A stretch of 64,000 nt of DNA from a virus: IMG/VR virus record IMGVR_UViG_3300044510_000078. One strand, given 5' to 3'. The number at the start of each line of letters is the position of its first letter. Position 1 is the stretch's first letter. The notes below the pieces were generated by a model. That model made no database searches, was not told the origin of the DNA, and saw only the letters and a list, made by a program, of their open reading frames with translations. The position numbers and the translations under genes are program-made. This document shows positions 18,373 through 33,465 of this stretch, one piece after another.

Positions 18373-20114
18373 TAAGGAATAGGTGTTTTTTTATTAGTAT
18401 ATGTTATCTCTAAACCCATATTTATAGTATTTTTAGAAGAAAACGAATACTCAAAATTAGACAAAAACCAAGTTGTTTTAAATCCATTTAAATTTAATAA
18501 ACGATTTAGCGCCAATTTTTTTGCTAGTTTTTTAAGAGCTACGAGTTTCGATACTGGAACGGCATATGGAGAAAGTAGGTTATTGGCATTTGGCCTCTCA
18601 ATAGTCGCATCCAAAGAGACGTTTATTTTGCCCTCGGTGCTTTGATAGGCATAATCTATGACGCTTTTATTAGTTGGGCGGTTAATAATTTTTATTTCAT
18701 TAAAAATATCGGCCGGTTTTGTCTCTGATATTTTTGCGTCAATAATTCTAAACCCATCTACACCATCAAGAGAAACTTGATAAATTGGATTCGTAGTGTA
18801 TTTAAATGTCGCAGAAAAAGCCTTTCCTCTAGTTGGGAATTCGTAATCGGAAGATAAGCATACAATGTTGGTCTTAAAAGATGGATTATAATATCCATAA
18901 TTCGCATACAAATTCTGGCAACGGGTTCTTGAATCTGAACGCTCTCCAGCAACTATTTGTGGCATTGTTTGGCCGTTTTCAATTATTAAATTCAGATAAT
19001 CAGCCTGCTTTGGTTGTAGCGCGGCATATCTAATTGAGTCTGTAATGTCCACGTAGCTTGCCTCATTTCTATCCAGAGTCGTATTGATTTCTTTACGAAA
19101 TTTCGTTGACCAACTTTTATCATTTGAAAATTTAATTGTAGAATTTATTGTAAGAGCTGGCTTGTTTAGTGTTTTTGATACATCTACTGGCTGATTCATT
19201 AGGGCGTCTATTGACGTATAACCGAATTGATTTACCCAAGACTGTAGAGCGTCATTGCATCTATTAAAACTTTGTCCATAGAGTGTCGAGAATCCGGCTT
19301 CTGCCTGTGCAAAAGAAAACCTACCAACCACAGTAATGTTTTCAGTAACATTGACTATACCATCTTCGCCCATGTCCAAAGAGCGGGCGACATTATGAGT
19401 AGATGTGCCGAGATTGCTCGGAGCCAACTCTTTCTTTTTCTCAAAACTGAAAGTGTTTTTGAACAGGTCGTAATTTTCGGTGAAATAATTTTTGCTTGTG
19501 GAATAATCGGCATAATCGAGGAGCGCTCCAGTAAATCCGTAAAAACTAAATCCACTGATTAAATTATCTGTTGTGAAAAGTCCAGACGCGACCTCTTGGG
19601 CTAAAGTTTTTGTAGATTTCTGCGAGTCTCCAGAGCGTAAGGTAAGGTTGAGAACGTGGGAATAACTTTTGCCGCCGTCTTCTTTCGTTTCAAAATTAAA
19701 TGATTCCGAAAATTCATCTAGGTATTTATAATAACCAGTTATTGTGCTCTTTATTCCGGCGTAATATTTGTTTTCGCTGAATTCGCCCGTGTGAGAACCT
19801 AAAAAATCGCCGGTTTTCCTCACTTCTACAGTGGTTATGTATTTGCAGAATCTTATATTGTCTTCTTTGGTTTCTTGGGAGATAGGCGCAGAAAGGGAGA
19901 CGATATTAATATCTCCTGAAAAAGCTCCGATTGCTTGGGAAATTGTTGATTTTAAATATGAGCTTAAATTCGCAGTATTAAATAGGTCTGTTCCATAAAT
20001 TTCAAGGGTGAGGGTTTCTATTTCTCGATGTTGTAATGCGTTTCCAAGATATTCTTTTTTTGAAGAGTATCCTAATAATCCAGTATAGATTCCTTGATTT
20101 AGATTAAGTGGCAT
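18372..20114 (-). CDS. Putative distal tail/baseplate protein
   Basis: 580-aa ORF immediately after the tape measure; position only. Confidence 0.5.
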   Translation of the reverse strand: MPLNLNQGIYTGLLGYSSKKEYLGNALQHREIETLTLEIYGTDLFNTANLSSYLKSTISQAIGAFSGDINIVSLSAPISQETKEDNIRFCKYITTVEVRKTGDFLGSHTGEFSENKYYAGIKSTITGYYKYLDEFSESFNFETKEDGGKSYSHVLNLTLRSGDSQKSTKTLAQEVASGLFTTDNLISGFSFYGFTGALLDYADYSTSKNYFTENYDLFKNTFSFEKKKELAPSNLGTSTHNVARSLDMGEDGIVNVTENITVVGRFSFAQAEAGFSTLYGQSFNRCNDALQSWVNQFGYTSIDALMNQPVDVSKTLNKPALTINSTIKFSNDKSWSTKFRKEINTTLDRNEASYVDITDSIRYAALQPKQADYLNLIIENGQTMPQIVAGERSDSRTRCQNLYANYGYYNPSFKTNIVCLSSDYEFPTRGKAFSATFKYTTNPIYQVSLDGVDGFRIIDAKISETKPADIFNEIKIINRPTNKSVIDYAYQSTEGKINVSLDATIERPNANNLLSPYAVPVSKLVALKKLAKKLALNRLLNLNGFKTTWFLSNFEYSFSSKNTINMGLEITYTNKKTPIP

Positions 20115-20122: not shown

Positions 20123-23100
20123 TTATGCTGTAACTGTTGCTGGAGTTGGTTCTCCGAACTTAGAAGAAAACTTACTATAAAGCTGATTATAAATCATTTC
20201 TCCAAATTCTTCTTTATTATCTTCAAATTTTTCTGACAATAAAGAAACCAAAGCTTCATCTCCAGTTAGATTAAATCCAATATCTAAAAATAACTTTGTG
20301 TCTGGTTGAACAGCGCTCAAGTTAGGATTACCACTGTCATTGGTGCTCGGAGTAGGATTACCACTGTCATTGGTGCTCGGAGATTTTCTATTTTTATTAA
20401 GGATTTCCTTAATGTAGCCGTTTATTTCTTTTAGTTGCGTATTTAGAGAATCTCGTTCTGTGGAATTAGAAGATACGTTTACCTTTCTGTAAAGTATGTC
20501 TCTACGTTTTTCTAACCTTTGTAAAGCGATATTGTCTTCTTCAGTAAGTCCGGCCCGACCTAGGGCTACGCCTCTAAGCGCATTAATGCTTTTTATTTCT
20601 TTTTCAGTTCCTGTCATTTTTTGATATGCAACATCAGCCGGTGTAGGGACTCCTTCTGGTAAAAACGAAGGAAAAAGTGAAGAAATTATCATGCCCCCCA
20701 GCGAGGAATGAGCAGCAGCAATACGCGCGTAGTCCATCTTTGAAAATTCCCTTTTTCCATCATCTTCTGGAAGACTGTTTGCAAAATTTTCTGCTTCTTT
20801 AAGTTTTGGATTTGGTTTATTTTCACCACCCCTTAACGCGGCCGATTTTATTTCATTTATCAACTTAATTTGATTTTCTAAAGATTTATTATGAGCATTC
20901 CAAAGCGCAACTGTTTGTGCGGCAGCCGTTCTTAAATCTGTGAAATTAGTTTTCAATCCTTGCGATTCATTCGCTATTTCCCTAAAACGCGCAAGTGCAT
21001 CGGCTATATTTGTGTCTAATTGTTGTTTTGCAAATTTTGGAGAAAGGACTTTTTCAAGCTCGTTTGCAATAGCAGAAGGCAAAACCTGTATTCCCTTTGC
21101 TATTGAAGATATATCATCCGGCATTTTATCTGATTTTAGTTCTTTGTTAATTTGCTCTTTCGCAATAAGCCCAGTCTTTGATTTTGCAGACATAAGTTCT
21201 TCTATGGCTCCGAGAATAGCCCCCCTCTTTTGCGGGTCTTTCGTGCGAGATAAAGCTCTTTCTAATGAAAGGACTTGAGTCCTAATATCTTTATTTAGCG
21301 ATTTTTCAAGGCCAACAGCCGCGATTTGCCTCAAACCTGCGCCTGACTTTCCTCCCAAATAATCGGTGCCAAGCATTTTTTGTAAATTTTGTCCAAGCTT
21401 TAAGGCTCCACGTCCACTACGAATGTCATTATTTCCTAAAATGAAAGAGCTTGCTCCACGGGCTATATTTGTATTTAATTCTCTTGCCTCGTCAGGGTTT
21501 GAGAAAGAAGAAGCTCCACCTCTAAAAGCGAGTCTTTGATTTTTGTCATATGAAAAATTTGAAATTTTAATTGCGTCAGCAGCCTTTCTGAATTCGTCTC
21601 TCATTTCGTCATTGTTTATTTTTTCTAAGATTTTATTTGCATAAATTCTTTCTTCTTTAGATATTTGATTCCCCCTCATCAAGTCATCTAAACTTCGTTT
21701 CATAATGTTTGTTGAATTCATTATTTCTGTTGTGTTGCCTCTTTTCATTATCCCTTGAAACATATTTGACACTATATCAGTTATATGGGTTTTATCTGTA
21801 TTTATGGATACCTCTTCTTCTTTTCCGGTTTTTGGATTTTTTCTTTTGGTTTTTGTTTCTGATTCAATATCTAAACTAGAAACAGCCTCGCTCAATGTTT
21901 TTTTAAACATTTGTCCAATATTGTTGATTGCCGTTTCTTTAGTTTCAAATTCTCTTACGAACCTTTCTCCAGTAAATGATGAAGCATAATCTATCCCAAT
22001 ACGTCTGTCAGTGAGAGAGGAGTCTATCTTTCGTAAAAATCCAGCTTTTATAGAAGAACGATAGTCTTTAATTGCTTTAGTAAGCAGTTCTTGTTCTGCG
22101 TTTACTAGAGATTTTTTTATTCTATTCTTTTTTATTTCTTCTGTTTCATTAGCTAATGATTCATTAACATTTCTTGCTGTGATTGCTAGAGCTTTTATCG
22201 CTGAAGTAAGAATAGAAAATTGTAGTGGGTCATTCCCCCCCAATTGAGAAAGAAATATGGCATGAGCTTTTCCAAAAATAGATTCTAATTTTTTTAAACT
22301 TTCTGTTCGTTGTCCTTCTGTTTCGAAATTTAAAGAATCAGAAGTAAAACTATCAAGCTTTCCTTTTTGCTCTTCATCCATAGACAGCAAAACTCCTTTT
22401 GCGTATGAATTAACATTTAATTCTGCCGCACTCCTACCACGACCAGAGTCAAAAAATATATTTTTATTATTTTTATAAATCTCCGCATATTTCGAAGCCG
22501 TCTCAAATTGCGAACGTTCTTTGTCAGACTTTTCTCGAAATTCTTCTATAACTTTTACTTTTTCTTTTTCTGATGTTGTATCTTGTAATTTTTTAGCTAA
22601 GCCTGCCCCACCAAGAGTAATCATATCCCTGAGCGTCGCTGAAAGTTTGCGTTTCACATTGTTTAAACTCTCCGCATCTGCATTATCTGAAGATAGAATT
22701 TCATTTTGTTTAGAAAGCAACTGAAGATATTTATCACCTTCTTGTGAAATTTTCTTATCGGTTTCGATTTTTGATTCAAGAGTTTTTATTTTGTAAGTTG
22801 CATCTCTTAGGCTTTTTTGATAAATTTCATAAACATTTATTATACCTATTGTTAAACCAGCTAATATCCCAATTGGCCCCGGCAAAGCCATCATAACTTG
22901 CGCCGAAGTCATCATTGCATTTCCAAGTTCTTGTGTCCTTTCTTTAAGAGGATTTGTATTATCCATTAAAGAAGAAGCCATTGAGACAGCGCTTGATGCG
23001 GCAAACCCGCCTCCAGTTGCATAACTTTTCCATTTTTCTACCGCCCCCTTTCTTGAAAGACTTTTTTCAACATCTCTAACTTGAGTTCTAGTTTCTACTA

Positions 23101-26100
23101 TCTCTTTTCTTTTTGCTACCATTTTCGCTTCTGCTAATTGTCTTTGACTTTCTGCATTGTTAAAATCTGCGCGAGTAACTGATGCTGCTCTGGCTTGTAA
23201 AGCTGCATGGCGCTCATCTTTAGCTTTATGAAAGGCTCCCCTACTTTCTATAACTTTTTTATTTAACATTTCTAAACTGTCTTTTAATTTTTGAGTGCCA
23301 TCAAGTAGCCCTTTTACGTTCCCTAAAGAATTGACAAACATAGTCAAACCAAACAAACCAGACGCTCCAACGCCCCCAATTAACCCATCATCTGCGAAAT
23401 TCGGAATAAAACCTTTTGCCCTTCCAGCATTTCTTGGGTCAAGACCCTTGCTTAAATAACGATTTATTCCTTGATATCCACCAATGGGTTCGTCCCTTTT
23501 ATTGGCGACTCCAATTCCGAGTGGATTACCAGTTGAAATTAATTTCTTATTAGAGAATGCATAAATTTGAGAATATGGGAGTCCAGATTGTTTTTTCTCT
23601 CTGTTTATCGCTTCAGAAACTCCGAAGCTTGGGATATAACCAAAACTTAAAGATGGAACATTTTTTATTCCAGCAATTTGAGCAAGAGTAAACCTATGAT
23701 TTCCGTCGGAAATTTCTCTATGATTTTCTGGAAAATCTCGCACGGAAATAGGATTCTTTTTTAAAAATTGATAAAGCTTTTTTTTGTTTGTTTTAGAAGA
23801 AAATAATTCTCCAATGCCAGATTTTGTAATCTCACCATCATAATCAAAGCCTATATAAGATAACAAGTTTTTCAAACCTTCAGTATGTGGACGATTAGCT
23901 TGAGATAGTGTTCCTCCAGACTCAAGGAGCTTTTTTATATTAAAAACTTTTGAAAAACTAGGAATAAATCCACGAGAAAAAGGAATAAACAAAGAGCCAG
24001 ATAATCCCCTCGTCTTAAATAAATTACCGTCTCCTTCAGCAAATGGAGCCTTGATTCCAGTAAATTTTTGGGCTCTTAAAATATTAGTTAATTCGCGGCC
24101 CGCCAGTTGGATAAGTTGTAATTGTTCCTCGCCAGAAGCATTTTTAATTTTTGCTGCCAGACCTTTTGGTAACATATGTTCGTATTTTTTATATAAACGA
24201 ACAATATCAGAGTATTTCCCTAGTTCAAGAATTTTATCTGTCTCAGACAGTTTTTGAGAAATGACATTTTTGTTATAAAGTTTGGCGATTTTTTCATTAT
24301 CAGTAAAATTACCTTGTCCTATGACGGCGACCAATTTATTAGCGACTCCAATAGAATTTCTTCCCAGATTTTCAGGAAGAGTTGGGCGACCAGAGCGAGT
24401 TCCTCTAAAAACTGTTGGGCCGCTTGTATCAGGGGTAAAACCACCCGCCAAACTTAATAACCCTTGATTATGGCCGTATTTTTTCGCAAACTTTTTGGCG
24501 GACTTAACGAATTGTTCCATATACTGTGGGTCCGATTCTTTAACGCCTTTCTTCGCTAAAACCTCTTTCAGCCAACGGCTTTGAAAGACGTTTCTTCCCT
24601 TGAAGATTAAATCTTGAGCAAAATTTGGAATATAGCCCAAAGATTTCATTATTCCTCCACGATGGGAGTCGGCGTGGATTAGCGTAGCAGTAATTTCAGA
24701 TTTACCTAACCTAGCAATTGCTTGGATATTTGCAATGGCGTCGTCATTTAAGTGATATTCGCCGCCCTGCTTTTCTTGTAGTCTTTTTAATAATAGGGCT
24801 TTTTTTTGTGCTGAATTTAATTTTGTATAACCGGGAGAATTTTTCCCTCCAGTATTTTTAATACGACCAATAGAGTTTATTCTAAGGTCATTAAACATAT
24901 CTCCAACGCCGATTACCTTCTTAGGGAATAGACCAAGTTTAGTAAGACGATTAACAATTGCGGCCCTGTTTTCTTTTGAGCTTCTTGCTGTTAGGACTTC
25001 TACTTGTTTTCCAATCAAGCCCTCTCCATGAGGTGTTAGTTTAGAGCTAGGATGAAATATAGATTTTTCAGGAGTAAATGTGTCCGCATAGCCGACTTCT
25101 GGCCCATAGGTTAAAAGAGTTTCGTCCAAGTCCTGAAATACTCTTTGAGCAAAATTCGGGATATGACCCAAAGAAGCTAACCCAATTCTAAAATTTGTAT
25201 AGTTTCCATAGGCTCCTGCATTTTCTGAACTTTTCTCGAAAGATTTTGTATTGAAGCCATGTTTATCAAGAAAGCTCCTTACGAATTTTATACTGCCAAA
25301 TTGCGCCCTGCTATTTAATTCTTCGTCGGCGTTGAAACTCGGCATATCAATACGGATTTGCTTGTAGCCCATTTTCTTGAGCATACCCATATTCACTTTG
25401 AAAGCTTGATAAGCGTCTTTTGCGTTTCTAATGGTTCTTAGGTCTATATAAGCTGGCCTGTTAGCGGCACTTGTCTCTCTTGAACCGAACTTTGTTTGTC
25501 CGTAAACGGCTTTGAGCCCAGAGACTAACTTGGAGTTTATTTTTGTTCCAAAGTCTGCGGTTAGCTTTGTAGAATAAGAGTATGCGCTAACTCCTCTGTT
25601 TGCTATGCCTCCACCAGCTTGAAAAAACATACTACCTAAGCTTTGGTCAATTCCAGATTCTACATTTGACAAATTAGGATTTGTATATGAACGAACTATA
25701 TTTGGGCGGCGCTGCGCTTGTCTGATAAAATTAGATAGCTCATCTGCACCTAAAGTTCCCCTGCGGCCTATTGTTGGAACTCTCACTCCTAATTTAGATG
25801 CTGCGTATAAGAACAACTCGTCCGATAAGCCAATTCCTTCTTTTAATTTTTCGAGAATACTTTGTCCATTTGGCAAATTAGCACAGGCTTGTGTTACTTT
25901 TTCTATAGTTTTTTGAGAAGCGAAATTAGGGATATAACCGCTTGCTGCGAGCATTGGCGCTCTTGAAGATTTATTTAACAAACTAAGACTCGATACTCCC
26001 AGTCTGTCTTTTAGAATTTTAGCCGCCATGCTTTTTCTTGCGTCGTCAGAGTCGGAAGATTTGAACTCGGCTTTTCTTCCAATAGGCAAAGGAAGACCTA

Positions 26101-28558
26101 ATGGACTTTTAAAAATCTTTGATAGTTGAGCGGGGATAGCCGCTATATCAAAATCCCCCCCGCTTGTAGTTCCGGCCACTTTTTCTCCAAATGCCAATCT
26201 CATCCCTGACTCGAAAACACCACCAACAACTGACTGGACCGCACCGAGAAGTCCCTTAGACTCGTTCATAGCTCTATGCATGGCTTTTGAAGCCGTAGCT
26301 TGGGATATGGCGGGACCAAAAGTGCCAGCAAATCCAGCAACTTGATTTATTAAAAATTCATTAATATTTTTATTTAAATCAATAGGAGGATATACCGAAT
26401 CTGGACTAAATCCAAATACCCCGAATGGTAATAAATGGCCACCAAGCCTTTTGATTCTCCTTCCTTGAATTGGGATTCGAGGTTTTGAATAAGAAAGCAA
26501 AGAATAATCGGAAACACTTAATGTCCTTATCGCCTCTGGAATATTTACTGATGATTTAGATAAATCTTTCTCTGTTTGTTTTTCTTTCGTGCTTACGTAT
26601 CCAGCTTGCGCTGCCTGTTCTGGTGTTATTTTTCCAATTCTTATTTGATGAGGAATTTGAAATTGATTAAATGTTTGTCCATTAATAGTATAAACATCTT
26701 TCGCAAAATTAGGAACCCACCCCCTCATGTATTTAGGAATAACCATCGAATCCCCACTACGAGTAGGCATACCCATCGCTCTAAATTGAGCGCCGGTGAT
26801 TTCCTTTTCGTGATTATTCATTATGAATGGGCGACCACCAATTGTTCCTTTACCCCATTGTGCCCTGACAGAAGAAGGAGCGCCCAATCTTCTAGCCGAA
26901 GCTTCTTCTATTGCAAAAGCTGGAACGTGACCAGCGGCAGAAGTTTTAGGAGCGCCAAATAAATTTGTTACCGAAGTTCTAACTCCAGACTTAACCATTT
27001 GTAGAGCTATATCCTGCGCGACTTTTGCCTGAAAAGCTAAAAGAGAATTTTCATCTCTTATACTCTGTAGAATTCTTTGATGCGCCTGTTCTACTGTCAC
27101 AGTTCCTCGATTTATTTCTTTGAGAATTTCTGGATTCTTCTGAAGATAAAGAAGGACTTGTTGTTGTATTAATTGATAATCTTTTGCGGATTGATTGATT
27201 CCCATGAATTCTCTAAAAGAATCGCCAGCAAATCTTGTCAATTTTTCAAAAAGCTTCAACACTGTAAAAGTCAACAATTGGACGCCGGGACCGCTCAATA
27301 ATTGCCCAAAAGATTTTAGAAATCCTTGAAAGATTTTGTCTCCAATTCCTTCTCCAATGGCAGAGTCTCCTATATTTTTCGCTAAATCTCCAAATGTATC
27401 CAAACCCCCTTTAAGGGTCGGAGAAAGGGTAATATTTCCCACGTTTGCCGCTGCTCTTGTAAAGTTATTTAATGTTTGAGTGAGTTTGGCGGAAATTGTT
27501 TGATTTAACTTATTATTTCTGTCTATCGCGTCATCAACTGTATTATTGGCGGTTTTAAGAGCTGAATCGTAAACGCTTACTCCATTGCCTAAGTCTTGCA
27601 GAACAGCTTTCAAAATGTTAATTTGATAAACCCCACCAACAGTTTCAGCAATTGAAGACCTTTGAGAACCGCTTAGATTGTCATATTGTCTAGCTAGACT
27701 TTTTAGAACATCAATTAACGGCAGCGCATTTCCAGAAGCGTCTTTAGTAGCTATTCCAACTTCTTGTAATTGAGAAATCACCTCTGGACGTTGCAAACGA
27801 GTAAAAATAGTCTTAAAAGAGTTACCAATAACAGCACCACCGCGAGCCGTAGTCTGTTGCGCTGTAGTAATTAAGGCAATAGTTTCATTTAGCGAAATGT
27901 TCGCTTCACTGGCCGAACTACCCACGCGTTTTATACCTTCCGCTAAATCTCCAGCGCTTACAGAAAATCTAGCGTCAACAGTTGCCAATCTATTAACAAG
28001 TTCGATAGCTGTTAAGGACTCTGTATTAAAAGAGTTAAGTGCGGCAGTAATAGAAGCAACGGCATCTGCATAATCAACGCCAGATAATCTACTTAAAATC
28101 AAAGAAGCCCTAGTCCTTTCCAATGTTTCAGCAGCAGACAAGCCCTGTCTCGAAAATTCTTGAGCAGCTTTCGCCGCGTTCCCAAATGATGTAGCGGTAT
28201 TGTTAGCTACTTCAAAAAGCCCAGTAGAGAATCTACTTAGTTCTTTCTGTGACAAATTAAGAATGGCATTGATGTCTGAAAGACTTTTTTCTACTTCAAT
28301 TGTAGAACCAAGCAACTTATCAAATGCAATTTTTACAGCGGCAATTGCTCCAGCAGAAGCTCCGAACGCGATAACACGAGCGTTAGACGCTTCAAGAGAT
28401 TTTGAGAACTCAGAGGCTTTTCCAGTGATTTTTCCTAGAGGCTGGTCAATTCCAGCGACATTCAATGAGCCAAGTCTCCTTGGCCTATTTAAAGCCCTAT
28501 CTATGACCTGTTCCAGCGGCCTTGGGTCACCACCCACTGTAAGAATAATATCTGGCAT
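20123..28558 (-). CDS. Tail tape measure protein (TP901-like N-terminal core) with internal cargo domains
   Basis: 2811 aa; Ala/Gly-rich helical N-terminus (VEKSLSDINAIL...FGNAAKAAQEFSRQGL...), C-terminal coiled coils; follows tail tube and chaperone genes. Confidence 0.9.
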   Translation of the reverse strand: MPDIILTVGGDPRPLEQVIDRALNRPRRLGSLNVAGIDQPLGKITGKASEFSKSLEASNARVIAFGASAGAIAAVKIAFDKLLGSTIEVEKSLSDINAILNLSQKELSRFSTGLFEVANNTATSFGNAAKAAQEFSRQGLSAAETLERTRASLILSRLSGVDYADAVASITAALNSFNTESLTAIELVNRLATVDARFSVSAGDLAEGIKRVGSSASEANISLNETIALITTAQQTTARGGAVIGNSFKTIFTRLQRPEVISQLQEVGIATKDASGNALPLIDVLKSLARQYDNLSGSQRSSIAETVGGVYQINILKAVLQDLGNGVSVYDSALKTANNTVDDAIDRNNKLNQTISAKLTQTLNNFTRAAANVGNITLSPTLKGGLDTFGDLAKNIGDSAIGEGIGDKIFQGFLKSFGQLLSGPGVQLLTFTVLKLFEKLTRFAGDSFREFMGINQSAKDYQLIQQQVLLYLQKNPEILKEINRGTVTVEQAHQRILQSIRDENSLLAFQAKVAQDIALQMVKSGVRTSVTNLFGAPKTSAAGHVPAFAIEEASARRLGAPSSVRAQWGKGTIGGRPFIMNNHEKEITGAQFRAMGMPTRSGDSMVIPKYMRGWVPNFAKDVYTINGQTFNQFQIPHQIRIGKITPEQAAQAGYVSTKEKQTEKDLSKSSVNIPEAIRTLSVSDYSLLSYSKPRIPIQGRRIKRLGGHLLPFGVFGFSPDSVYPPIDLNKNINEFLINQVAGFAGTFGPAISQATASKAMHRAMNESKGLLGAVQSVVGGVFESGMRLAFGEKVAGTTSGGDFDIAAIPAQLSKIFKSPLGLPLPIGRKAEFKSSDSDDARKSMAAKILKDRLGVSSLSLLNKSSRAPMLAASGYIPNFASQKTIEKVTQACANLPNGQSILEKLKEGIGLSDELFLYAASKLGVRVPTIGRRGTLGADELSNFIRQAQRRPNIVRSYTNPNLSNVESGIDQSLGSMFFQAGGGIANRGVSAYSYSTKLTADFGTKINSKLVSGLKAVYGQTKFGSRETSAANRPAYIDLRTIRNAKDAYQAFKVNMGMLKKMGYKQIRIDMPSFNADEELNSRAQFGSIKFVRSFLDKHGFNTKSFEKSSENAGAYGNYTNFRIGLASLGHIPNFAQRVFQDLDETLLTYGPEVGYADTFTPEKSIFHPSSKLTPHGEGLIGKQVEVLTARSSKENRAAIVNRLTKLGLFPKKVIGVGDMFNDLRINSIGRIKNTGGKNSPGYTKLNSAQKKALLLKRLQEKQGGEYHLNDDAIANIQAIARLGKSEITATLIHADSHRGGIMKSLGYIPNFAQDLIFKGRNVFQSRWLKEVLAKKGVKESDPQYMEQFVKSAKKFAKKYGHNQGLLSLAGGFTPDTSGPTVFRGTRSGRPTLPENLGRNSIGVANKLVAVIGQGNFTDNEKIAKLYNKNVISQKLSETDKILELGKYSDIVRLYKKYEHMLPKGLAAKIKNASGEEQLQLIQLAGRELTNILRAQKFTGIKAPFAEGDGNLFKTRGLSGSLFIPFSRGFIPSFSKVFNIKKLLESGGTLSQANRPHTEGLKNLLSYIGFDYDGEITKSGIGELFSSKTNKKKLYQFLKKNPISVRDFPENHREISDGNHRFTLAQIAGIKNVPSLSFGYIPSFGVSEAINREKKQSGLPYSQIYAFSNKKLISTGNPLGIGVANKRDEPIGGYQGINRYLSKGLDPRNAGRAKGFIPNFADDGLIGGVGASGLFGLTMFVNSLGNVKGLLDGTQKLKDSLEMLNKKVIESRGAFHKAKDERHAALQARAASVTRADFNNAESQRQLAEAKMVAKRKEIVETRTQVRDVEKSLSRKGAVEKWKSYATGGGFAASSAVSMASSLMDNTNPLKERTQELGNAMMTSAQVMMALPGPIGILAGLTIGIINVYEIYQKSLRDATYKIKTLESKIETDKKISQEGDKYLQLLSKQNEILSSDNADAESLNNVKRKLSATLRDMITLGGAGLAKKLQDTTSEKEKVKVIEEFREKSDKERSQFETASKYAEIYKNNKNIFFDSGRGRSAAELNVNSYAKGVLLSMDEEQKGKLDSFTSDSLNFETEGQRTESLKKLESIFGKAHAIFLSQLGGNDPLQFSILTSAIKALAITARNVNESLANETEEIKKNRIKKSLVNAEQELLTKAIKDYRSSIKAGFLRKIDSSLTDRRIGIDYASSFTGERFVREFETKETAINNIGQMFKKTLSEAVSSLDIESETKTKRKNPKTGKEEEVSINTDKTHITDIVSNMFQGIMKRGNTTEIMNSTNIMKRSLDDLMRGNQISKEERIYANKILEKINNDEMRDEFRKAADAIKISNFSYDKNQRLAFRGGASSFSNPDEARELNTNIARGASSFILGNNDIRSGRGALKLGQNLQKMLGTDYLGGKSGAGLRQIAAVGLEKSLNKDIRTQVLSLERALSRTKDPQKRGAILGAIEELMSAKSKTGLIAKEQINKELKSDKMPDDISSIAKGIQVLPSAIANELEKVLSPKFAKQQLDTNIADALARFREIANESQGLKTNFTDLRTAAAQTVALWNAHNKSLENQIKLINEIKSAALRGGENKPNPKLKEAENFANSLPEDDGKREFSKMDYARIAAAHSSLGGMIISSLFPSFLPEGVPTPADVAYQKMTGTEKEIKSINALRGVALGRAGLTEEDNIALQRLEKRRDILYRKVNVSSNSTERDSLNTQLKEINGYIKEILNKNRKSPSTNDSGNPTPSTNDSGNPNLSAVQPDTKLFLDIGFNLTGDEALVSLLSEKFEDNKEEFGEMIYNQLYSKFSSKFGEPTPATVTA
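20323..20382 (-). repeat. Perfect 30-bp tandem duplication in the tape measure C-terminus (PSTNDSGNP x2)
   Basis: taggattaccactgtcattggtgctcggag at 20323-20352 and 20353-20382. Confidence 0.9.
23392..26940 (-). repeat. Nine dispersed GxxP(N/S/A)F(A) peptide motifs within the tape measure
   Basis: GHVPAFA (~26912), GWVPNFA (~26702), GYIPNFA (~25920), GHIPNFA (~25148), GYIPNFA (~24618), degenerate GFTPDTS (~24422), GFIPSFS (~23951), GYIPSFG (~23622), GFIPNFA (~23392). Confidence 0.85.
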
Positions 28559-28595: not shown

Positions 28596-29480
28596 TTAGC
28601 GAGTAACGTAATTCGTTTTTTTATAAATGCCGTCAGGTTGATTATTTTTATTCTTATTTTGGTAAATGGAGTGTTCAGTGTCATACCAGTCCACCAACTC
28701 TTTTACAGTAGTATCTTCGTGAATATCTGGCGGATTATTTTCTGAATTTTCTATTATTCTGATATTTCTTACTGTCTTGGAAAAAAGATTCAACTGATAA
28801 TCAGAAAAAGCTATAATTGGTTTCCCAAAAAACTCATATGGCCTATCTTTACAAAAGCTAATTTGGTTTATGACAAATGGAAGCGCCGCTAAAGACCCGA
28901 GACTTGTTTCTGAAAATTTAGAAAATGCCCTATTTTGTTCTTCTATTAAATTGTCTAGCTCAGACTCCTCTACGGCATCAAATTCATCACTAGAAAAAGC
29001 CTTTATTTTTAATTGTTCATCTTTATAGAACCCATGAAATACAAATAAAGAAAGCAAATATTTTTGAGCCAAAATATCAGCGGTAGGATTTAGTGCGGAA
29101 TACCTTTCCATTAACAAGCTGTTGAGTTCTTGTTTTTTTTCGGTAATTACTTTTTCTATAACTTTTCTTTGCTCTAGGAGTGGCATATTGGCCACGACTT
29201 TTGAGTTGTCAGAAATTAAGTATTTTAATTCTAGGATTTTTTCTTCTTTTTCGGGAAGCCAAACTCCTTGTTCGGCTAGGATTTTAAGTTTTTCCGATTC
29301 AGTTGGAACACCCTCTGAGTTTTTTAACTTTATATAGGCTGATTTTTTTTCAGCAAAGAATGAGTTATCTAATTCTGAAAAATGCTTTATATACCAACTC
29401 GTTTTTTCGCTAAAAGAATAGCCATTTACTATTTCCTTAAATAAGGAGCGAAAATTTTCATATTCATCATAGACTAACAC
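28596..29480 (-). CDS. Putative tail assembly chaperone (second)
   Basis: Charged helical 294-aa protein directly upstream of the tape measure; GTG start. Confidence 0.5.
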   Translation of the reverse strand: MLVYDEYENFRSLFKEIVNGYSFSEKTSWYIKHFSELDNSFFAEKKSAYIKLKNSEGVPTESEKLKILAEQGVWLPEKEEKILELKYLISDNSKVVANMPLLEQRKVIEKVITEKKQELNSLLMERYSALNPTADILAQKYLLSLFVFHGFYKDEQLKIKAFSSDEFDAVEESELDNLIEEQNRAFSKFSETSLGSLAALPFVINQISFCKDRPYEFFGKPIIAFSDYQLNLFSKTVRNIRIIENSENNPPDIHEDTTVKELVDWYDTEHSIYQNKNKNNQPDGIYKKTNYVTR

Positions 29481-29492
29481 ATGATGATAAAA

Positions 29493-30272
29493 TTATACCG
29501 GCTCTTCCACTACGACATAATCATCAAATTCATTACTATATAAGTCTTCCAAATTCTTAACGTCGTTTTGTGACAAAGACCCAGTTGTTGACCAATAGCT
29601 GACAAAATATGCAAGTTTCCTCATTACTTCATTAAGAAAAGCGTCGCCATTTTCTTCTGCTTTGTCGTATGAATCTAATTTCTGTTCATAAGAATCGCCC
29701 GTAAAGATAGGGACAAATTCTCCTTTTTCATTTTCAATTACGCCTAAGTGTAGCGTCCACCAAAAGACCGCTTTGTTTCTTGCTTTGACTTCCGCCGTTT
29801 GATTAAAGATAGAGTAATACGGACTCTGGATAGAATCAATCTGTTGTTGAGTTTCTTGCAGTTGTAATAGAGTATCGTTTTGTTTTTTTTCTTGTTCTGG
29901 AGTTTTAGGAGTAATAGCTGCCGACTCTAATAGCTGCCTGTTGAGGTCTTTTCTTTTTACGTCCAGAAGTTCTATGGTCTTTTTTTCGTCATCATTTAAT
30001 GCGCCGCCATCGTTGTCATATCTTTTCGCAATCATATGAAGACTTAACAACCCTTCTTTCATAAGTTGCGAAAGGGTTTTAGCATAGAAAGTTTCTGCGC
30101 CTTCTCTAAGTTTGCGCGTTGGTTTGATAAGTTTGACCTTGACAGGCTTGGCTTTTTTGATAGACTTTGTTACTTCGACTTCTTTCCCTTCGTCTATCTT
30201 TTTTTCTGTAACTTTGTCTTCAATTTGTTTTTTGACAACGAATTCGCAAAGATATTTGTTGACTACTTCCAT
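29493..30272 (-). CDS. Putative tail assembly chaperone
   Basis: Charged coiled-coil 259-aa protein between tail tube and tape measure. Confidence 0.5.
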   Translation of the reverse strand: MEVVNKYLCEFVVKKQIEDKVTEKKIDEGKEVEVTKSIKKAKPVKVKLIKPTRKLREGAETFYAKTLSQLMKEGLLSLHMIAKRYDNDGGALNDDEKKTIELLDVKRKDLNRQLLESAAITPKTPEQEKKQNDTLLQLQETQQQIDSIQSPYYSIFNQTAEVKARNKAVFWWTLHLGVIENEKGEFVPIFTGDSYEQKLDSYDKAEENGDAFLNEVMRKLAYFVSYWSTTGSLSQNDVKNLEDLYSNEFDDYVVVEEPV

Positions 30273-30291
30273 AGATTTCCCCTTTACCTGA

Positions 30292-30612
30292 TTATTCTAT
30301 TGTTAGGACGGCGTTTGATACAGTTTTTTTAATAATCTTACGTTGTTCTTGCGCGGTTTTTAATCTTTCTGGATTGATATAAAAATCAAACACATCCAAT
30401 AAATTTGTAATTTCCCTAGAACACTCATTTCCAGAATCAAGTATTTTTTTTCTTAGTTGTTCTGATTTTTCTGCGGAAATTTTATTTTCTTTTTTTAAAT
30501 CGTCAAGAACATTTAAATAATACTTAAACAGTCTTGTGATTGATTGGTGGACTTGAAGATTAACAAAGTCCTTGTTATGAACGCCCTGTTCCTCAGTTGT
30601 GTAGTTTTGCAT
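30292..30612 (-). CDS. Hypothetical protein
   Basis: 106-aa ORF with an AAGG RBS and an upstream GTGTAA motif. Confidence 0.6.
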   Translation of the reverse strand: MQNYTTEEQGVHNKDFVNLQVHQSITRLFKYYLNVLDDLKKENKISAEKSEQLRKKILDSGNECSREITNLLDVFDFYINPERLKTAQEQRKIIKKTVSNAVLTIE

Positions 30613-30636
30613 ACCTTATACCAAAGGTATTTACAC

Positions 30637-30670
30637 AAAAAATCCCGCACTGGACTTCTCCAACACGGGA
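30637..30670 (-). terminator. Rho-independent terminator after the major tail gene
   Basis: Minus strand TCCCGTGTTGGA-GAAG-TCCAGTGCGGGA (with G-U pairs) followed by a T-tract. Confidence 0.7.
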
Positions 30671-30691
30671 AATTTGGACTCTTATAACTGA

Positions 30692-31519
30692 TTACAGGCT
30701 TGTTTGGTCAGAGAAGGTTACGTCAACGCCTTCTGAATTAAAGTTATACGTTGCGCCGACTTCTCCAGCGCCTTGATTGAAATTACGACTTACAAGTTTA
30801 GCATCATTAATTTGACATTTCAAGTGACCAAATTGAACAGCATTTGCTTGTTCGGCGGAAGTTCCTTCAATTGCGATTGTCCCCTTAAACGGAGGCTTTG
30901 CGACTTGAACGTTTGTTCCAGTTACTAAACTTTGCGCTCCGCTAATAACAGAATTGATGCATGAAATAACTTCATTTGGCATATCAAAAGAAAACTTCGC
31001 AGAACGAGGGCAAGTGTCAAACGAACCATCTGGTGTAGTCAAACTGATTTGATTAATAATAGGGGTCACAGCGGCCAAAGCGCTCGCGTGTTGTCCTCCG
31101 CCGATTGTAGTAGGAACTGCATCATAAGCAGGTTCTCCAACGCCAACGAATGACATATCAACCATTACGAAGTTACCTTTGGAAGCGTCAATACTTAGAC
31201 TTGACAAAATGCCCGACATTCCAAATCCATTTGGAACTACGCGAATATCAGAAACAGTCCCGGCCATAGAGTTGCCAGTCAATGTATTAATTATAGAAGC
31301 GGTAAGCGTGTGAGCATTGCCAGTGCCGCTGGCCAAGAAAATTTTAATATCAGATTTACAAGTTGCAACTTCCTTCTGGAAGCGTCCTGCTGACCCTAAT
31401 TTTCCTAAAATAACAATGTCTTCCACTGGAATAGTCGTTTCGCATGATGCGGATTGCACTGGAAATTGTTTTCCATCTATCGTTGCAATTTGGCTTGAGT
31501 AAAGAGTTCTTGCTGGCAT
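30692..31519 (-). CDS. Major tail tube protein
   Basis: 275-aa beta-rich protein (VQSASCETTIPVEDIVILGKLG...); position; strong leader shared with the capsid gene; downstream terminator. Confidence 0.75.
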   Translation of the reverse strand: MPARTLYSSQIATIDGKQFPVQSASCETTIPVEDIVILGKLGSAGRFQKEVATCKSDIKIFLASGTGNAHTLTASIINTLTGNSMAGTVSDIRVVPNGFGMSGILSSLSIDASKGNFVMVDMSFVGVGEPAYDAVPTTIGGGQHASALAAVTPIINQISLTTPDGSFDTCPRSAKFSFDMPNEVISCINSVISGAQSLVTGTNVQVAKPPFKGTIAIEGTSAEQANAVQFGHLKCQINDAKLVSRNFNQGAGEVGATYNFNSEGVDVTFSDQTSL

Positions 31520-31601
31520 AGTTTTTTCCTATTTTGTTAAAAGTGTCCAATATGTTTTACAGATAAAAGCCTCTTCTGTGAAATTAAAAGTCCTATTTTT
31601 T

Positions 31602-32426
31602 TTACCCATGTGACCTTAATGTAGAGACTTCGAAATCAATAAAAGAGACATACAAATTATCTCCGATATTTTTAATCTGAGAATTTGGCAAAACTTTTGA
31701 TTCAGAGACTTTCCAAATGGTAGATTTTTGCCCAGTTGCATAAGTTTCATAATTATATTGAGTCCCCGTGTATGCTCCGCGAGCGTCAAAAGGCGGAGCG
31801 TCAACGAAATTCATTGTTTTTAAATTTGTATCTTTTAAAATGCCAGCGACAGCATCCAAAACGTAGGTATTGTCACTAACAATTATAGCCCGAATGTCGG
31901 TAGATGTATTGTCCACGCCGCCCAAGGCGAAGGGCTTATTTTCACCACCCCTTTTTTTAATAAAAACTGCTGGAATGATATACGTATCTGGAGCCAATCC
32001 GCTTAAAGTTTGAGGATATTTAGAATTTGTAAAGAATTTTTTTTCAAATACAATCGTTTCATCTGGGTCTGTCGTCATGTAAACATTTACGTCTTTAATA
32101 GCGTAATTACCGCTTATTGTTGCTGAAACATTTGAAGAAAAATCGCAAGTCCCATTATAGTGATTTATAGCCAATAAATTGTTTTGGCCCACTGGCGAAA
32201 ACGTATTATTTAAATATACACCAGTCATTAAATTAGCGCCCACGACTGAAGAATCATTCACAAGTTGCTTAAAAGGTGCGGCATATGTAAACCTAGATTG
32301 ATATTTATTGATTGATGGATAAAACACGCTCCCATAATTAGCAAAAGCATTTCCTTTTGTTAAAATTTCATGGTCAACGAACAACAAAAAACTAGATAAA
32401 AGTGAATGCTCAAATTGTTTTTTCAT
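31602..32426 (-). CDS. Putative tail terminator/completion protein
   Basis: Directly upstream of the tail tube; C-terminal PAVFIK...G...DIRAIIVSDN...FIDFEV pattern. Confidence 0.5.
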   Translation of the reverse strand: MKKQFEHSLLSSFLLFVDHEILTKGNAFANYGSVFYPSINKYQSRFTYAAPFKQLVNDSSVVGANLMTGVYLNNTFSPVGQNNLLAINHYNGTCDFSSNVSATISGNYAIKDVNVYMTTDPDETIVFEKKFFTNSKYPQTLSGLAPDTYIIPAVFIKKRGGENKPFALGGVDNTSTDIRAIIVSDNTYVLDAVAGILKDTNLKTMNFVDAPPFDARGAYTGTQYNYETYATGQKSTIWKVSESKVLPNSQIKNIGDNLYVSFIDFEVSTLRSHG

Positions 32427-33019: not shown

Positions 33020-33465
33020 TATGTTATTTCGTCTAATGCGTAAATAAAAAGGCTCGCATTTAAAAATGTTTGTTTTTTTGGTCCGCCCACTATCTTCCAA
33101 AATTTGTTATCAAATCCAATTTTTTCAGTTTGACCACTTTGAATAAAAAACAAGCAATCCTGCCTTACTTTTACAGAGCAGTCCCCCTGTGTATATTTAG
33201 TTTCTATTGCGGATATAACATCGTTTTGCTTTTTGACTCGATTGTAGATAACTCTTGCGTCAAATATTCCAGACACGGGGACGTATGTATAATTTTCTGT
33301 ATTTTGATTGTCTTCGTATCCGAATACCGTATTAACAGATGGAGTTGAAACAATGACTTTAATTGGCTCCTTAAATACTGTAATTGACCTAGAGAAAGTA
33401 TCAAAATTCTCACCAAAACTTTCAGTGAGAGACGCTTTTTCTTCCAATGTTAGTAGGCTAGACAT
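33019..33465 (-). CDS. Putative head closure (stopper) protein
   Basis: 148 aa, small beta-barrel-like C-terminus (CSVKVRQD...KIGFDNKFWKIVG); position. Confidence 0.5.
   Translation of the reverse strand: MSSLLTLEEKASLTESFGENFDTFSRSITVFKEPIKVIVSTPSVNTVFGYEDNQNTENYTYVPVSGIFDARVIYNRVKKQNDVISAIETKYTQGDCSVKVRQDCLFFIQSGQTEKIGFDNKFWKIVGGPKKQTFLNASLFIYALDEIT

What the first reader, a model, noticed from the sequence alone, without database searches (positions are those of the whole stretch)
23392..26940. Tape measure protein carries a cassette-like array of enzyme domains between nine GxxPNFA linkers
Seen in sequence: nine copies of a short conserved motif split about 1180 aa of the tape measure into unrelated blocks. 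One block has PD-(D/E)xK nuclease-like residues (VFESG...GGDFDI...KAEFKS, ~25950-26700). One has the HAD phosphatase motifs (FQDLDETL, VLTARS, YHLNDD, ~24650-25145). One has a ParB/sulfiredoxin-like core (NPISV...ISDGNHRFTLA...GIKNVP, ~23650-23950). Other blocks are unassigned. Established: tape measure proteins are typically proteolytically processed and ejected into the host, and some carry muralytic domains. Inference: the linkers are processing sites or recombination-friendly junctions, making the tape measure a delivery vehicle for a swappable effector arsenal (anti-defence or host takeover), analogous to polymorphic toxins.
Basis: partly seen in the sequence, partly recalled or inferred. 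Interest (0 to 1): 0.9.

Follow-up and report, generated by a model that had tools for sequence, protein, structure and literature searches.

The report
Tape measure with swappable enzyme modules
The tail-length "ruler" protein of this uncultured phage carries a string of small enzyme-like modules in its middle, each fenced by the same nine-residue peptide; related phages gain, lose and replace modules exactly at that peptide, so the tail probably also carries ready-made enzymes into the host, though neither cutting nor delivery has been shown.

Summary
The gene at 20123-28558 (-) is one 2811-aa TP901-family tape measure protein (TMP). Residues 543-1722 hold eight canonical copies and one degenerate copy of [AS]xG[YF][IV]PNFA, against 0.02 expected by chance. 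The motif occurs nowhere else in the window.

About 100 related TMPs carry the motif 0-13 times. Three blocks form a conserved core (B0, B1, B6). B2-B5 are rare inserts.

Near-identical relatives differ by whole-module insertions, deletions and one replacement. The breakpoints lie inside the motif-coding 21 nt or right beside a motif. Synonymous sites vary between copies, so selection acts on the peptide.

predicted with good confidence for residues 1380-1529. It is nearest to diphtheria toxin, AcrIF11 and ART-PolyVal.
- **ParB/sulfiredoxin fold:** supported, but weakly.
- **HAD phosphatase:** rests on invariant catalytic motifs and language-model neighbours only.
- **PD-(D/E)xK:** the residue pattern is conserved, but the fold is not supported, and this block belongs to the core rather than the cargo.

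Cleavage at the motif and delivery into the host remain untested.

The closest known kinds are polyvalent proteins (Iyer 2017) and the P23-45 TMP-fused RNA polymerase. The scan has already noted the same motif-fenced TMP design on several other genomes.

The parts
20123..28558 (-). Tape measure protein gene, 2811 aa, one uninterrupted ORF
   Evidence: the same protein lies on 4 contigs
27632..28210 (-). PF10145 PhageMin_Tail domain (aa 117-309) inside the helical N-terminal part (aa 1-542)
   Evidence: E 5e-31, 108 bits against a cut-off of 33
26912..26932 (-). Motif copy 1, GHVPAFA (aa 543-549)
26723..26911 (-). B0 (aa 550-612), a conserved core unit
   Evidence: blastp finds it in 62 of 101 relatives; conservation
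26702..26722 (-). Motif copy 2, GWVPNFA (aa 613-619)
25940..26701 (-). B1 (aa 620-873), a conserved core block. The N-terminal half varies; the conserved ~90-aa core (aa ~765-850, window ~26009-26266) carries FE...GGDFD...(D/E)FK...S..K
   Evidence: found in 44 relatives; conservation over 41 sequences; homolog model has pLDDT 55-68, is mostly helical and matches no nuclease
25919..25939 (-). Motif copy 3, GYIPNFA (aa 874-880)
25169..25918 (-). B2 (aa 881-1130), an orphan cargo block of unknown fold
   Evidence: Only its first 47 aa match 3 TMPs, and its C-terminal part matches P0113 and P0118; no Pfam or PHROG hit
25148..25168 (-). Motif copy 4, GHIPNFA (aa 1131-1137)
24638..25147 (-). B3 (aa 1138-1307), probable HAD-superfamily phosphatase module
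   Evidence: DxDxT, LTAR, KK and DD are invariant in 8 homologs. The nearest language-model clusters are Phage_T5_dNMPase, HAD_SAK_1 and HAD_PNKP, scores 0.90-0.93. No HMM or PDB hit
24617..24637 (-). Motif copy 5, GYIPNFA (aa 1308-1314)
24443..24616 (-). B4N (aa 1315-1372), a small helical-hairpin module
   Evidence: model helices 2-22 and 32-47; shared with P0002, P0123-P0125, P0127 and P0028
24422..24442 (-). Degenerate motif copy, GFTPDTS (aa 1373-1379)
   Evidence: pLDDT below 50 in the model
23972..24421 (-). B4C (aa 1380-1529), ADP-ribosyltransferase-fold module with conserved YRG, N[YF]TDN and a near-invariant Asp
   Evidence: AF2 pLDDT mostly above 90. VIA: diphtheria toxin Z 6.7 and 5.8, ParT 5.5, AcrIF11 (6kyf) 5.4, MbcT 5.0. 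Atlas: ART-PolyVal and RES clusters. Conservation
23951..23971 (-). Motif copy 6, GFIPSFS (aa 1530-1536)
23642..23950 (-). B5 (aa 1537-1639), ParB/sulfiredoxin-like module with an invariant PI...DGNHR..LA..AGIKN.P signature
   Evidence: PF02195 at 17 bits, E 0.006. The homolog is the only PF02195 match in its 100-kb contig. Homolog model has pLDDT 77-96, and every VIA row on it is ParB/Srx fold, Z 3.4-4.3. Foldseek top rows are Spo0J, ParB, KorB and Noc. Conservation
23621..23641 (-). Motif copy 7, GYIPSFG (aa 1640-1646)
23414..23620 (-). B6 (aa 1647-1715), a conserved core unit that closes the array in most relatives
   Evidence: found in 74 of 101 relatives; last block of the array in most architectures
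23393..23413 (-). Motif copy 8, GFIPNFA (aa 1716-1722)
20123..23392 (-). C-terminal part of the TMP (aa 1723-2811), low in Gly and Pro, with one membrane-like hydrophobic segment at aa 1886-1911 (window 22826-22903)
28596..30272 (-). Two genes (294 aa and 259 aa) directly upstream, in the slot where tail assembly chaperones usually lie
   Evidence: Both are conserved directly upstream of the TMP in three distant relatives; no family hit

Best explanation
This is a polyvalent tape measure protein. An ordinary TP901-family TMP (N part 542 aa plus C part 1089 aa, together about the length of the shortest relatives) has a conserved core region, B0-B1-B6, punctuated by the peptide [AS]xG[YF][IV]PNFA. 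Five extra autonomous modules have been inserted between B1 and B6, each bounded by a copy of that peptide. In order they are an orphan 250-aa block, a probable HAD phosphatase, a small helical hairpin, an ADP-ribosyltransferase-fold domain, and a ParB/sulfiredoxin-like domain. SHOWN: the motif, the module boundaries, the variable content among about 100 relatives, and gain, loss and replacement of whole modules with breakpoints in or at the motif. Also shown: the motif is kept at the peptide level, not the DNA level. INFERRED (about 60%): TMPs leave the tail ahead of the DNA, and the recognisable folds are of the kind found in cytoplasm-acting enzymes (NAD+-, nucleotide- and DNA-directed). 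The modules would therefore be early effectors carried into the host on the TMP, as the P23-45 TMP carries its virion RNA polymerase. LEAST CERTAIN (about 40%, my leading guess): the motif is a proteolytic processing site that frees each module, as in viral polyproteins and the self-processing polyvalent proteins. Its one-copy-per-boundary layout, its position in predicted disordered linkers 3-5 residues from domain ends, and its small residues at -3 and -1 fit this but do not prove it.
For: - **TMP identity:**
- **Motif statistics:** 8+1 copies against 0.02 expected. Across 336 copies in 102 proteins, N is kept in 332, A(+5) in 308 and A(-3) in 240 (G, P and F are fixed by the search pattern). 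The motif is unique to this gene in the window.
- **Core versus cargo:** B0, B1 and B6 occur in 62, 44 and 74 relatives. B2, B3, B4 and B5 occur in about 0, 2-8, 3-15 and 10. In all, 312 blocks fall into 108 clusters, 78 of them singletons; the canonical order is B0-B1-B6.
- **Cassette events:** L007 and L009 are 90-97% nt identical, yet about 1 kb (two modules) is present only in L007, and the crossover lies inside the 21-nt motif copies, which share 19 of 21 nt. L008 has one of those two modules. P0010 and P0013 are 99% and 97% identical on the flanks, but the block between two motifs is replaced; in P0013 it is DUF7178. P0053 has one more module than P0054.
- **Peptide-level selection:** synonymous sites differ among the copies.
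- **Autonomous folds:** the B4C model has pLDDT 85 and an ART fold. Free-standing 156-178-aa homologs begin and end at the motif positions, and one is fused to NUDIX. B5 has a ParB/Srx fold. B3 keeps the HAD motifs.
- **Linkers:** motif segments have pLDDT below 50 in both models.
- **Relatives' modules:** these include GNAT, DUF7178, NlpC/P60, VanY, PcfJ-like and HExxH blocks, a repertoire like that of polyvalent proteins (PMC5512222).
- **Precedent:** a cytoplasm-acting enzyme on a TMP is documented in PMC10770324.
Against: - No protease domain and no HExxH in this protein, and no recognisable protease among ten neighbouring genes.
- No data on virion proteins, so neither cleavage nor ejection of the array has been observed.
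- Folded 100-250-aa domains in three TMP chains are hard to fit in a tail-tube lumen about 4 nm wide (general knowledge). How the array is housed is unexplained.
- The fold matches are modest: ART Z 5-6.7 and ParB Z 3.4-4.3, in a Z range the tool's own notes say is common among unrelated folds.
- The HAD call has no fold or HMM support.
- The ParB and B1 models are of a 55%- and about 35%-identical homolog, not of the window protein.
- Catalytic competence is untested. The ART module has Arg in strand 1 and a conserved Asp rather than a textbook R-S-E or H-Y-E triad.
Confidence: 0.55

Rival explanations
1. The modules are real cargo but are never cut off. The motif is a structural or docking element, for example a contact to the tube lumen, to the conserved upstream proteins, or between the TMP chains. 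It would restore the TMP's register after each globular insert. The enzymes would then act while tethered to the TMP pore at the cell envelope, as proposed for the P23-45 virion RNA polymerase.
For: The motif already occurs 3-4 times in the cargo-free core of the family, including variant forms in the shortest members, so it had a role in the TMP before cargo arrived. No protease was found in the gene or among its ten closest neighbours. The authors of PMC10770324 hypothesise that the TMP-fused vRNAP stays associated with the TMP pore. From memory: the T4 fibritin foldon starts with GYIPEAP, a trimer-axis arm that resembles the motif.
Against: The copy number (0-13) and spacing (50-1000 aa) vary freely, which fits a per-module signal better than a periodic structural contact. 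The motif is predicted disordered in monomer models. There is no positive evidence for any partner.
Confidence: 0.3
2. The array is evolutionary baggage or simple length filler. On this view the modules are decaying domains picked up by recombination at a recombination-prone repeat. They would tune tail length and have no enzymatic role in the host.
For: B2 is an orphan. B1, B0 and B6 fold poorly in silico. Most module clusters are singletons with no family match.
Against: The residues that stay invariant in B3, B4C and B5 are the signature residues of the HAD family (catalytic), of ParB/Srx, and the YRG motif of the ART module. B4C and B5 are predicted as compact, confident folds. B4C also lives as a free-standing gene and as a NUDIX fusion. 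The motif shows synonymous change but stays invariant in amino acids, so it is not simply a DNA repeat.
Confidence: 0.1
3. It is an artefact: a chimeric assembly or a run of separate genes wrongly read as one ORF.
For: None beyond the unusual length.
Against: The ORF has no stop over 8.4 kb. The identical protein lies on 4 contigs from at least 2 samples. About 100 relatives share the same design.
Confidence: 0.01

Closest known systems
Polyvalent proteins of phages and conjugative elements (Iyer, Burroughs, Anand, de Souza, Aravind 2017; PMC5512222)
   Same: One giant polypeptide joins several unrelated conflict-type domains. ART and ParB domains are among the commonest in that set, along with GNAT, peptidoglycan-targeting domains and zincin peptidases. 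These proteins are encoded among late or virion genes and predicted to enter the host with the DNA and to be processed into units. The B4C model's structural neighbours include Pfam ART-PolyVal clusters.
   Different: That paper describes proteins predicted to be packaged in the head and injected with the DNA, and T4SS-delivered ones. It never mentions tape measure proteins (0 occurrences). Processing there is ascribed to an embedded zincin peptidase, which this protein lacks. No conserved inter-domain peptide motif was found in the passages I read.
Thermus phage P23-45 gp96, a TMP-fused virion RNA polymerase (Chaban et al. 2024; PMC10770324)
   Same: It is a tape measure protein that carries a cytoplasm-acting enzyme which works at the very start of infection. 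This is experimental proof that a TMP can deliver an enzyme.
   Different: It has one enzyme at the N terminus, not an internal array. No fencing motif and no cassette exchange are described. It has no detectable sequence relation to this protein.
TMPs with cell-wall-degrading domains (T5 pb2, mycobacteriophage TM4, phiIPLA35; reviewed in PMC6116005)
   Same: An enzymatic domain is embedded in a TMP and used during entry. Some relatives of this protein carry NlpC/P60 or VanY modules.
   Different: Those domains act on the wall outside the cytoplasm and come singly. Here the recognisable modules belong to folds typical of intracellular enzymes (NAD+-, nucleotide- and DNA-directed) and come as an exchangeable array.
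Phage T4 Alt and other virion-packaged ADP-ribosyltransferases (PMC9503650)
   Same: An ART is made late, carried in the virion, and used on the host immediately after injection.
   Different: Alt is a separate head-internal protein. Here the ART fold is a segment of the tail's TMP, and its catalytic residues differ from the R-S-E type.
   Same: A conserved delivery scaffold carries variable enzymatic cassettes exchanged by recombination.
   Different: In polymorphic toxins the variable domain is the C-terminal tip, paired with an immunity gene and spare cassettes downstream. Here the cassettes are internal, multiple and motif-fenced. No gene I could identify as an immunity gene lies beside the TMP; the neighbouring genes match no known family.

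Membership tests
TP901-family tail tape measure protein (PF10145) | Match to PF10145 above the curated cut-off | tested here: met
   108.5 bits against a cut-off of 33.2, aa 117-309; ten PHROG tape-measure families, best E 4e-49
TP901-family tail tape measure protein (PF10145) | Position in a phage structural module, between conserved upstream genes and large tail genes | tested here: met
   TerL-like gene at 52287-54188 on the same strand. The upstream 259-aa and 294-aa pair is syntenic with the TMP in 3 relatives. The neighbours themselves match no family.
Polyvalent proteins (Iyer et al. 2017) | Two or more unrelated effector-type domains in one polypeptide of a phage or conjugative element | tested here: met
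   ART fold, ParB/Srx fold and HAD-like motifs in one phage protein
Polyvalent proteins (Iyer et al. 2017) | Embedded zincin-like metallopeptidase (MPTase) proposed to process the protein | tested here: not met
   No HExxH in the 2811 aa. HExxH-bearing modules occur in relatives P0016, P0019, P0029, P0105 and P0106.
Polyvalent proteins (Iyer et al. 2017) | Delivered into the recipient cell together with the DNA | not testable with these tools
   Needs virion and infected-cell proteomics
ADP-ribosyltransferase superfamily (B4C, aa 1380-1529) | ART fold | tested here: met
   Every non-helical VIA row on residues 64-215 but one (9k3a_B, a cyanophage pre-ejectosome chain of unchecked fold) is an ART-superfamily protein. 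Diphtheria toxin Z 6.7 (105 aa, rmsd 3.6) and 5.8; ParT 5.5; AcrIF11 5.4; MbcT 5.0; cholix, ExoA, RES and NatT lower. Z values are modest.
ADP-ribosyltransferase superfamily (B4C, aa 1380-1529) | Catalytic triad (R-S-E, H-Y-E or H-Y-D) in strands 1, 2 and 5 | tested here: inconclusive
   Conserved YRG on strand 1, N[YF]TDN on a short strand, and a near-invariant Asp at aa 1510. No residue-level superposition was available.
ADP-ribosyltransferase superfamily (B4C, aa 1380-1529) | Sequence-profile match to an ART family | tested here: not met
   No Pfam hit for the block. Only sub-threshold DRAT hits in two free-standing homologs, E 0.008 and 0.09. The PDB profile search was empty.
ParB/sulfiredoxin superfamily (B5, aa 1537-1639) | PF02195 ParB_N above the cut-off | tested here: not met
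   17.0 bits and 15.3 bits in the homolog, against a cut-off of 26.3. Both cover profile positions 41-75 only.
ParB/sulfiredoxin superfamily (B5, aa 1537-1639) | ParB/Srx fold with the DGxHR-type pocket | tested here: met
   In the model of the 55%-identical homolog, all four VIA rows on the domain are ParB/Srx proteins: SerK Z 4.3, sulfiredoxin 4.0, SbnI 3.5, Osa 3.4. Foldseek top rows are Spo0J, ParB, KorB and Noc, but with E above 1. DGNHR is invariant in 10 homologs. Weak scores; language-model neighbours are ambiguous, with VapB ahead of ParB_N.
HAD phosphatase superfamily (B3, aa 1138-1307) | Motifs I-IV (DxDxT, T/S, K, DD) in order and conserved | tested here: met
   D6, D8, E9, T53, K115, K116, D135 and D136 are invariant in 8 homologs of 34-45% identity
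HAD phosphatase superfamily (B3, aa 1138-1307) | Rossmannoid HAD fold or a profile match | tested here: inconclusive
   No Pfam or PDB profile hit. hhalign against T5 Dmp gave probability 0.1%. Language-model neighbours are HAD families, scores 0.90-0.93.
PD-(D/E)xK nucleases (B1, aa 620-873) | E ... D ... (D/E)xK residues | tested here: met
   F[ED] ... GGDFD ... (D/E)FK is conserved in 41 homologs
PD-(D/E)xK nucleases (B1, aa 620-873) | alpha-beta-beta-beta-alpha-beta restriction-endonuclease-like fold | tested here: inconclusive
   The homolog model of the core has pLDDT 55-68, is mostly helical with only two one-residue bridges at the two motifs, and gives only helical noise in VIA and Foldseek
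Polymorphic toxins | Variable toxin domain at the C-terminal tip, followed by an immunity gene | tested here: not met
   The variable modules are internal (aa 881-1639), and the next gene downstream is a 580-aa tail-region protein

The most novel reading that the evidence does not exclude
The peptide [AS]xG[YF][IV]PNFA would be a dedicated release signal, cut by a still unidentified phage or host protease or by the conserved TMP core itself. A large family of aquatic phages would then use the tape measure as a programmable injection polyprotein. Any small enzyme placed between two motif copies would be loaded into the tail, pushed into the host ahead of the DNA and freed there. This would be a plug-and-play effector delivery system distinct from head-packaged polyvalent proteins.
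Probability: 0.3. Interest if true: 0.85.

Novelty: new variant of a known kind. Interest (0 to 1): 0.7.

Why it matters
If the modules are delivered, the tape measure is more than a ruler and a channel former. It would be a second route, besides head-internal proteins, by which phages bring ready-made enzymes into the cell before any phage gene is expressed. Those enzymes would be an ADP-ribosyltransferase, a phosphatase or nucleotidase, and a ParB-type NTPase or nuclease, the kinds of activity used against host defence and for takeover.

The conserved fencing peptide gives a simple sequence handle for finding all such cargo in metagenomes. Most of that cargo matches no known family. It also gives a defined site to test for processing.

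The design also poses a structural puzzle: how folded domains are housed in or threaded through a tail tube. Near-identical phages that differ by 340 aa of TMP offer a natural test of whether the cargo counts toward tail length.

Tried and rejected
- **Phage reference genomes:** the INPHARED collection gave no DNA or protein match to the region.
- **Family scans of single blocks:** Pfam and PHROGs returned only a sub-threshold ParB_N hit.
- **PDB sequence and profile searches:** nothing meaningful for B3, B4 or B5. The B5 hit to a spectrin CH domain (DGNHRLTL) shows how little the short motif alone proves.
- **HAD checks on B3:** PF10307 found nothing in five contigs with B3 homologs. PF26880 is not in the tool's library. 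The B3 profile against T5 Dmp aligned only the DD motif, probability 0.1%.
- **Free-standing B5 relatives:** none found.
- **B0 and B6 as paralogous repeats:** hhalign probability 0.4%, so rejected.
- **DNA-level conservation of the motif in this gene as a recombination site:** rejected, since only about 14 of 21 nt are shared and synonymous sites vary.
- **Neighbouring genes:** ten gave no PHROG, Pfam or NCBIfam family, so no chaperone, tube or protease could be named.
- **Complex prediction:** three copies of aa 1632-1730 (motif-B6-motif) gave 'no answer' (score 0.00). This is no evidence either way.
- **Contigs of free-standing B4C homologs:** too short to give context.
- **Whole genome:** none is held for the window.
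- **Literature:** searches for the motif and for TMP cargo arrays found no description.
Full report
**1. What is there**

Window 20123-28558 (-) is a single open frame of 2811 codons. Residues 117-309 match PF10145 PhageMin_Tail (E 5e-31). The first 400 residues match ten PHROG tape-measure families (best E 4e-49).

The gene lies in a phage structural block. A T4-type large-terminase gene sits upstream on the same strand. Two genes of 259 and 294 aa lie immediately before it. Both are conserved directly upstream of the homologous TMP in three distant relatives. The identical protein was read on four contigs from at least two samples. It is a real tape measure protein (TMP) of an uncultured phage. 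No close relative exists among sequenced phages.

**2. The motif**

A search for G..P[NSA]F[ASG] finds eight copies at aa 543, 613, 874, 1131, 1308, 1530, 1640 and 1716, which is window 23393-26932. It corresponds to a true motif copy in relatives that share only the first half of that block.

Shuffled versions of the protein give 0.02 copies on average. The six-frame translation of the whole 64-kb window has no other copy.

A collection of 336 copies from 102 related proteins gives the consensus [AS]-x-G-[YF]-[IV]-P-N-F-A. G, P and F were fixed by the search pattern used to collect the copies. Beyond them, N is kept in 332 copies, the final A in 308 and the A at -3 in 240.

Within this gene the copies share only about 14 of 21 nucleotides, and their synonymous positions differ. 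What is conserved is therefore the peptide, not a DNA site.

**3. Core and cargo**

A search of 5.8 billion proteins with residues 540-1725 returned 101 TMPs. All but two carry PF10145, and they hold 0 to 13 motif copies. Even the '0-copy' members have variant forms such as GGYMPKFA.

| Block | Relatives that contain it | Source |
|---|---|---|
| B0 | 62 of 101 | |
| B1 | 44 of 101 | |
| B6 | 74 of 101 | |
| B5 | 10 | |
| B3 | about 8 | |
| B4 | a dozen or so | |
| B2 | almost none | |

An exhaustive HMMER search of 1.84 billion representatives with B2-B4 found only 29 proteins.

I cut 90 TMPs at the motif. This gave 312 blocks in 108 clusters, 78 of them singletons. The commonest architecture is B0-B1-B6, and extra blocks mostly sit between B1 and B6. 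The window protein is thus a canonical TMP whose N and C parts (1631 aa) match the length of the shortest relatives. Five extra modules have been inserted into a motif-punctuated core.

**4. Cassette exchange is directly visible**

Three IMG/VR contigs found with the B3 alignment carry TMPs that are 85-97% identical in DNA.
- L007 has about 1 kb (two modules, 213 and 128 aa) that L009 lacks.
- The L009 junction aligns to both flanking motif copies of L007. Those copies share 19 of 21 nt, so the crossover lies inside the motif-coding sequence.
- L008 has only the second of the two modules, plus others upstream.

At the protein level there are two further cases.
- P0010 and P0013 are 99% and 97% identical on either side of one motif-to-motif block that has been replaced outright. 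In P0013 that block is a DUF7178 domain.
- P0053 has one more module than P0054.

Where Pfam recognises a module in relatives (DUF7178 and GNAT, whose positions I checked), it sits neatly between two motif copies.

**5. What the modules are**

*B4, aa 1315-1529.* I folded this block with 12 short homologs. The model has mean pLDDT 85. Its first 50 residues form a helical hairpin (B4N). The degenerate motif is disordered. Residues 64-215 (B4C, aa 1380-1529) form a compact alpha/beta domain.

With one exception, the matches to that domain from the all-against-all structural search are ADP-ribosyltransferase-superfamily proteins. The exception is 9k3a_B, a cyanophage A4 pre-ejectosome chain (Z 6.7), whose fold I did not check.

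| Match | Z |
|---|---|
| Diphtheria toxin | 6.7 and 5.8 |
| ParT | 5.5 |
| AcrIF11 (6kyf) | 5.4 |
| MbcT | 5.0 |
| RES, cholix, ExoA, NatT | lower |

- The identification of 6kyf as the ADP-ribosylating anti-CRISPR AcrIF11 rests.
- Foldseek gives the same set at weak E-values.
- The ESM-Atlas search adds viral clusters carrying Pfam ART-PolyVal, as well as RES.
- Conserved residues are YRG on the first strand, N[YF]TDN, and a near-invariant Asp.
- The same domain exists as free-standing 156-178-aa proteins whose ends coincide with the motif positions. In one protein it is fused to NUDIX.

*B5, aa 1537-1639.*
- ParB_N scores 17 bits, below the cut-off.
- In a 100-kb relative contig, the only ParB_N match lies on the TMP's B5 homolog.
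- A model of that homolog (55% identical) has pLDDT 77-96 over the domain.
- All four structural rows on it are ParB/Srx proteins: serine kinase SerK, sulfiredoxin, SbnI and Osa, Z 3.4-4.3.
- Spo0J, ParB, KorB and Noc head the Foldseek list, but with non-significant E-values.
- PI...DGNHR..LA..AGIKN.P is invariant in ten homologs.
- I accept a ParB/Srx-like fold at about 80-85%.

*B3, aa 1138-1307.*
- In eight homologs of 34-45% identity, the invariant positions include the HAD catalytic residues (DxDxT, LTAR, KK, DD) in the canonical order and spacing.
- The nearest language-model clusters are viral HAD families: T5 dNMPase, HAD_SAK_1 and PNKP phosphatase.
- I rate it probable, at about 80%.

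However, the model of the core is of low confidence and mostly helical, and it matches no nuclease. The block also belongs to the conserved core rather than the cargo.

*B2* is an orphan. B0 and B6 are short conserved units that do not fold confidently alone and are not detectably related to each other.

**6. How it probably works**

Shown: a TMP scaffold with a motif-punctuated acceptor region, autonomous guest domains whose signature residues are conserved, and exchange of guests with junctions at the motif.

Inferred from established knowledge:
- TMPs leave the tail first and enter the envelope (PMC6116005, PMC10770324).
- In Thermus phage P23-45 a TMP-fused RNA polymerase transcribes pre-early genes, so a TMP can bring a cytoplasmic enzyme into the cell (PMC10770324).
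- The recognisable folds here are those of NAD+-, nucleotide- and DNA-directed enzymes, and such substrates are intracellular.
- I therefore read the array as early effectors carried on the TMP, at about 60%.

The role of the motif is open.
- For a processing site (about 40%): it has a strict one-per-boundary layout. It sits in predicted disordered linkers 3-5 residues from the domain ends. It has small residues at -3 and -1. It resembles viral polyproteins and self-processing polyvalent proteins.
- Against a processing site: no protease is recognisable in the gene or among its neighbours. The motif also predates the cargo in the core.
- For a structural or docking element with tethered enzymes (about 30%): the motif is already present in the cargo-free core.
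- A trimer prediction for motif-B6-motif gave no answer, which is not evidence either way.
- How folded domains fit in a tail tube is unexplained.

**7. Comparison and novelty**

The closest concept is the polyvalent protein of Iyer et al. 2017 (PMC5512222). These are multi-domain injected effectors rich in ART and ParB domains, with GNAT and peptidase domains as well. That paper never mentions tape measures. It invokes an embedded metallopeptidase that is absent here. No inter-domain motif appears in the passages I read.

The P23-45 TMP shows one fused enzyme, not an exchangeable array. TMPs with muralytic domains are a simpler precedent.

I found no paper that describes the motif or a TMP cargo array, within the limits of the held library. 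I class it as a new variant of a known kind.

Earlier follow-ups in this scan described the same motif-fenced design on other genomes, with the same open questions. My results were obtained independently on this window and agree with them.

Noticed in passing
window 39235-43375 (-): A PSCyt1/PSCyt2/PSD1 protein (916 aa) and a DUF1501 protein (471 aa, E 3.5e-134) sit inside the phage structural module. This pair is typical of planctomycete-type genomes and hints at the host lineage.
   Followed up: partly
window 50414-52252 (-): A 612-aa protein with collagen triple-helix repeats (PF01391, E 7e-21) lies next to the terminase gene.
   Followed up: no
window 28596-30272 (-): The 259-aa and 294-aa genes upstream of the TMP are in the same frame, separated only by TAA plus four codons. 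In relative G001 the two homologs are in different frames with a 112-nt gap. They occupy the slot of tail assembly chaperones but match no family.
   Followed up: partly
P0107, P0108, P0111, P0114, P0115, P0120 (free-standing); P0110: The ART-fold module exists as a family of free-standing 156-178-aa proteins. The matching Atlas clusters are viral. In P0110 it is fused behind a NUDIX domain, which links it to NAD+/ADP-ribose chemistry.
   Followed up: partly
P0105 aa 714 and P0106 aa 729: In two relatives an HExxH-containing block lies just before the ART-fold module. This recalls the peptidase-ART pairing of polyvalent proteins.
   Followed up: no
P0127 (759 aa): A TMP-like fragment carries a PcfJ-like domain (PF14284, E 4e-7) between two motif copies, followed by the start of an ART-type module. 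This is a further cargo type.
   Followed up: no
window ~25300-25330 (-), aa ~1076-1086 of the TMP: Inside orphan block B2 the peptide IDMPSFN resembles a decayed motif copy, so B2 may be two fused modules. Seen by eye in the translation, not tested.
   Followed up: no
PDB 9k3a chain B, residues 1279-1593: A chain of the cyanophage A4 pre-ejectosome matched the ART-fold module as well as diphtheria toxin did (Z 6.7, 122 aa aligned). An ejection protein of a short-tailed phage may therefore carry a similar domain.
   Followed up: no
window 9475-20114 and 28596-38669 (-): Ten tail- and head-region proteins (106-1146 aa) match no Pfam, PHROG or NCBIfam family. The phage's structural proteins are very distant from anything described.
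   Followed up: partly
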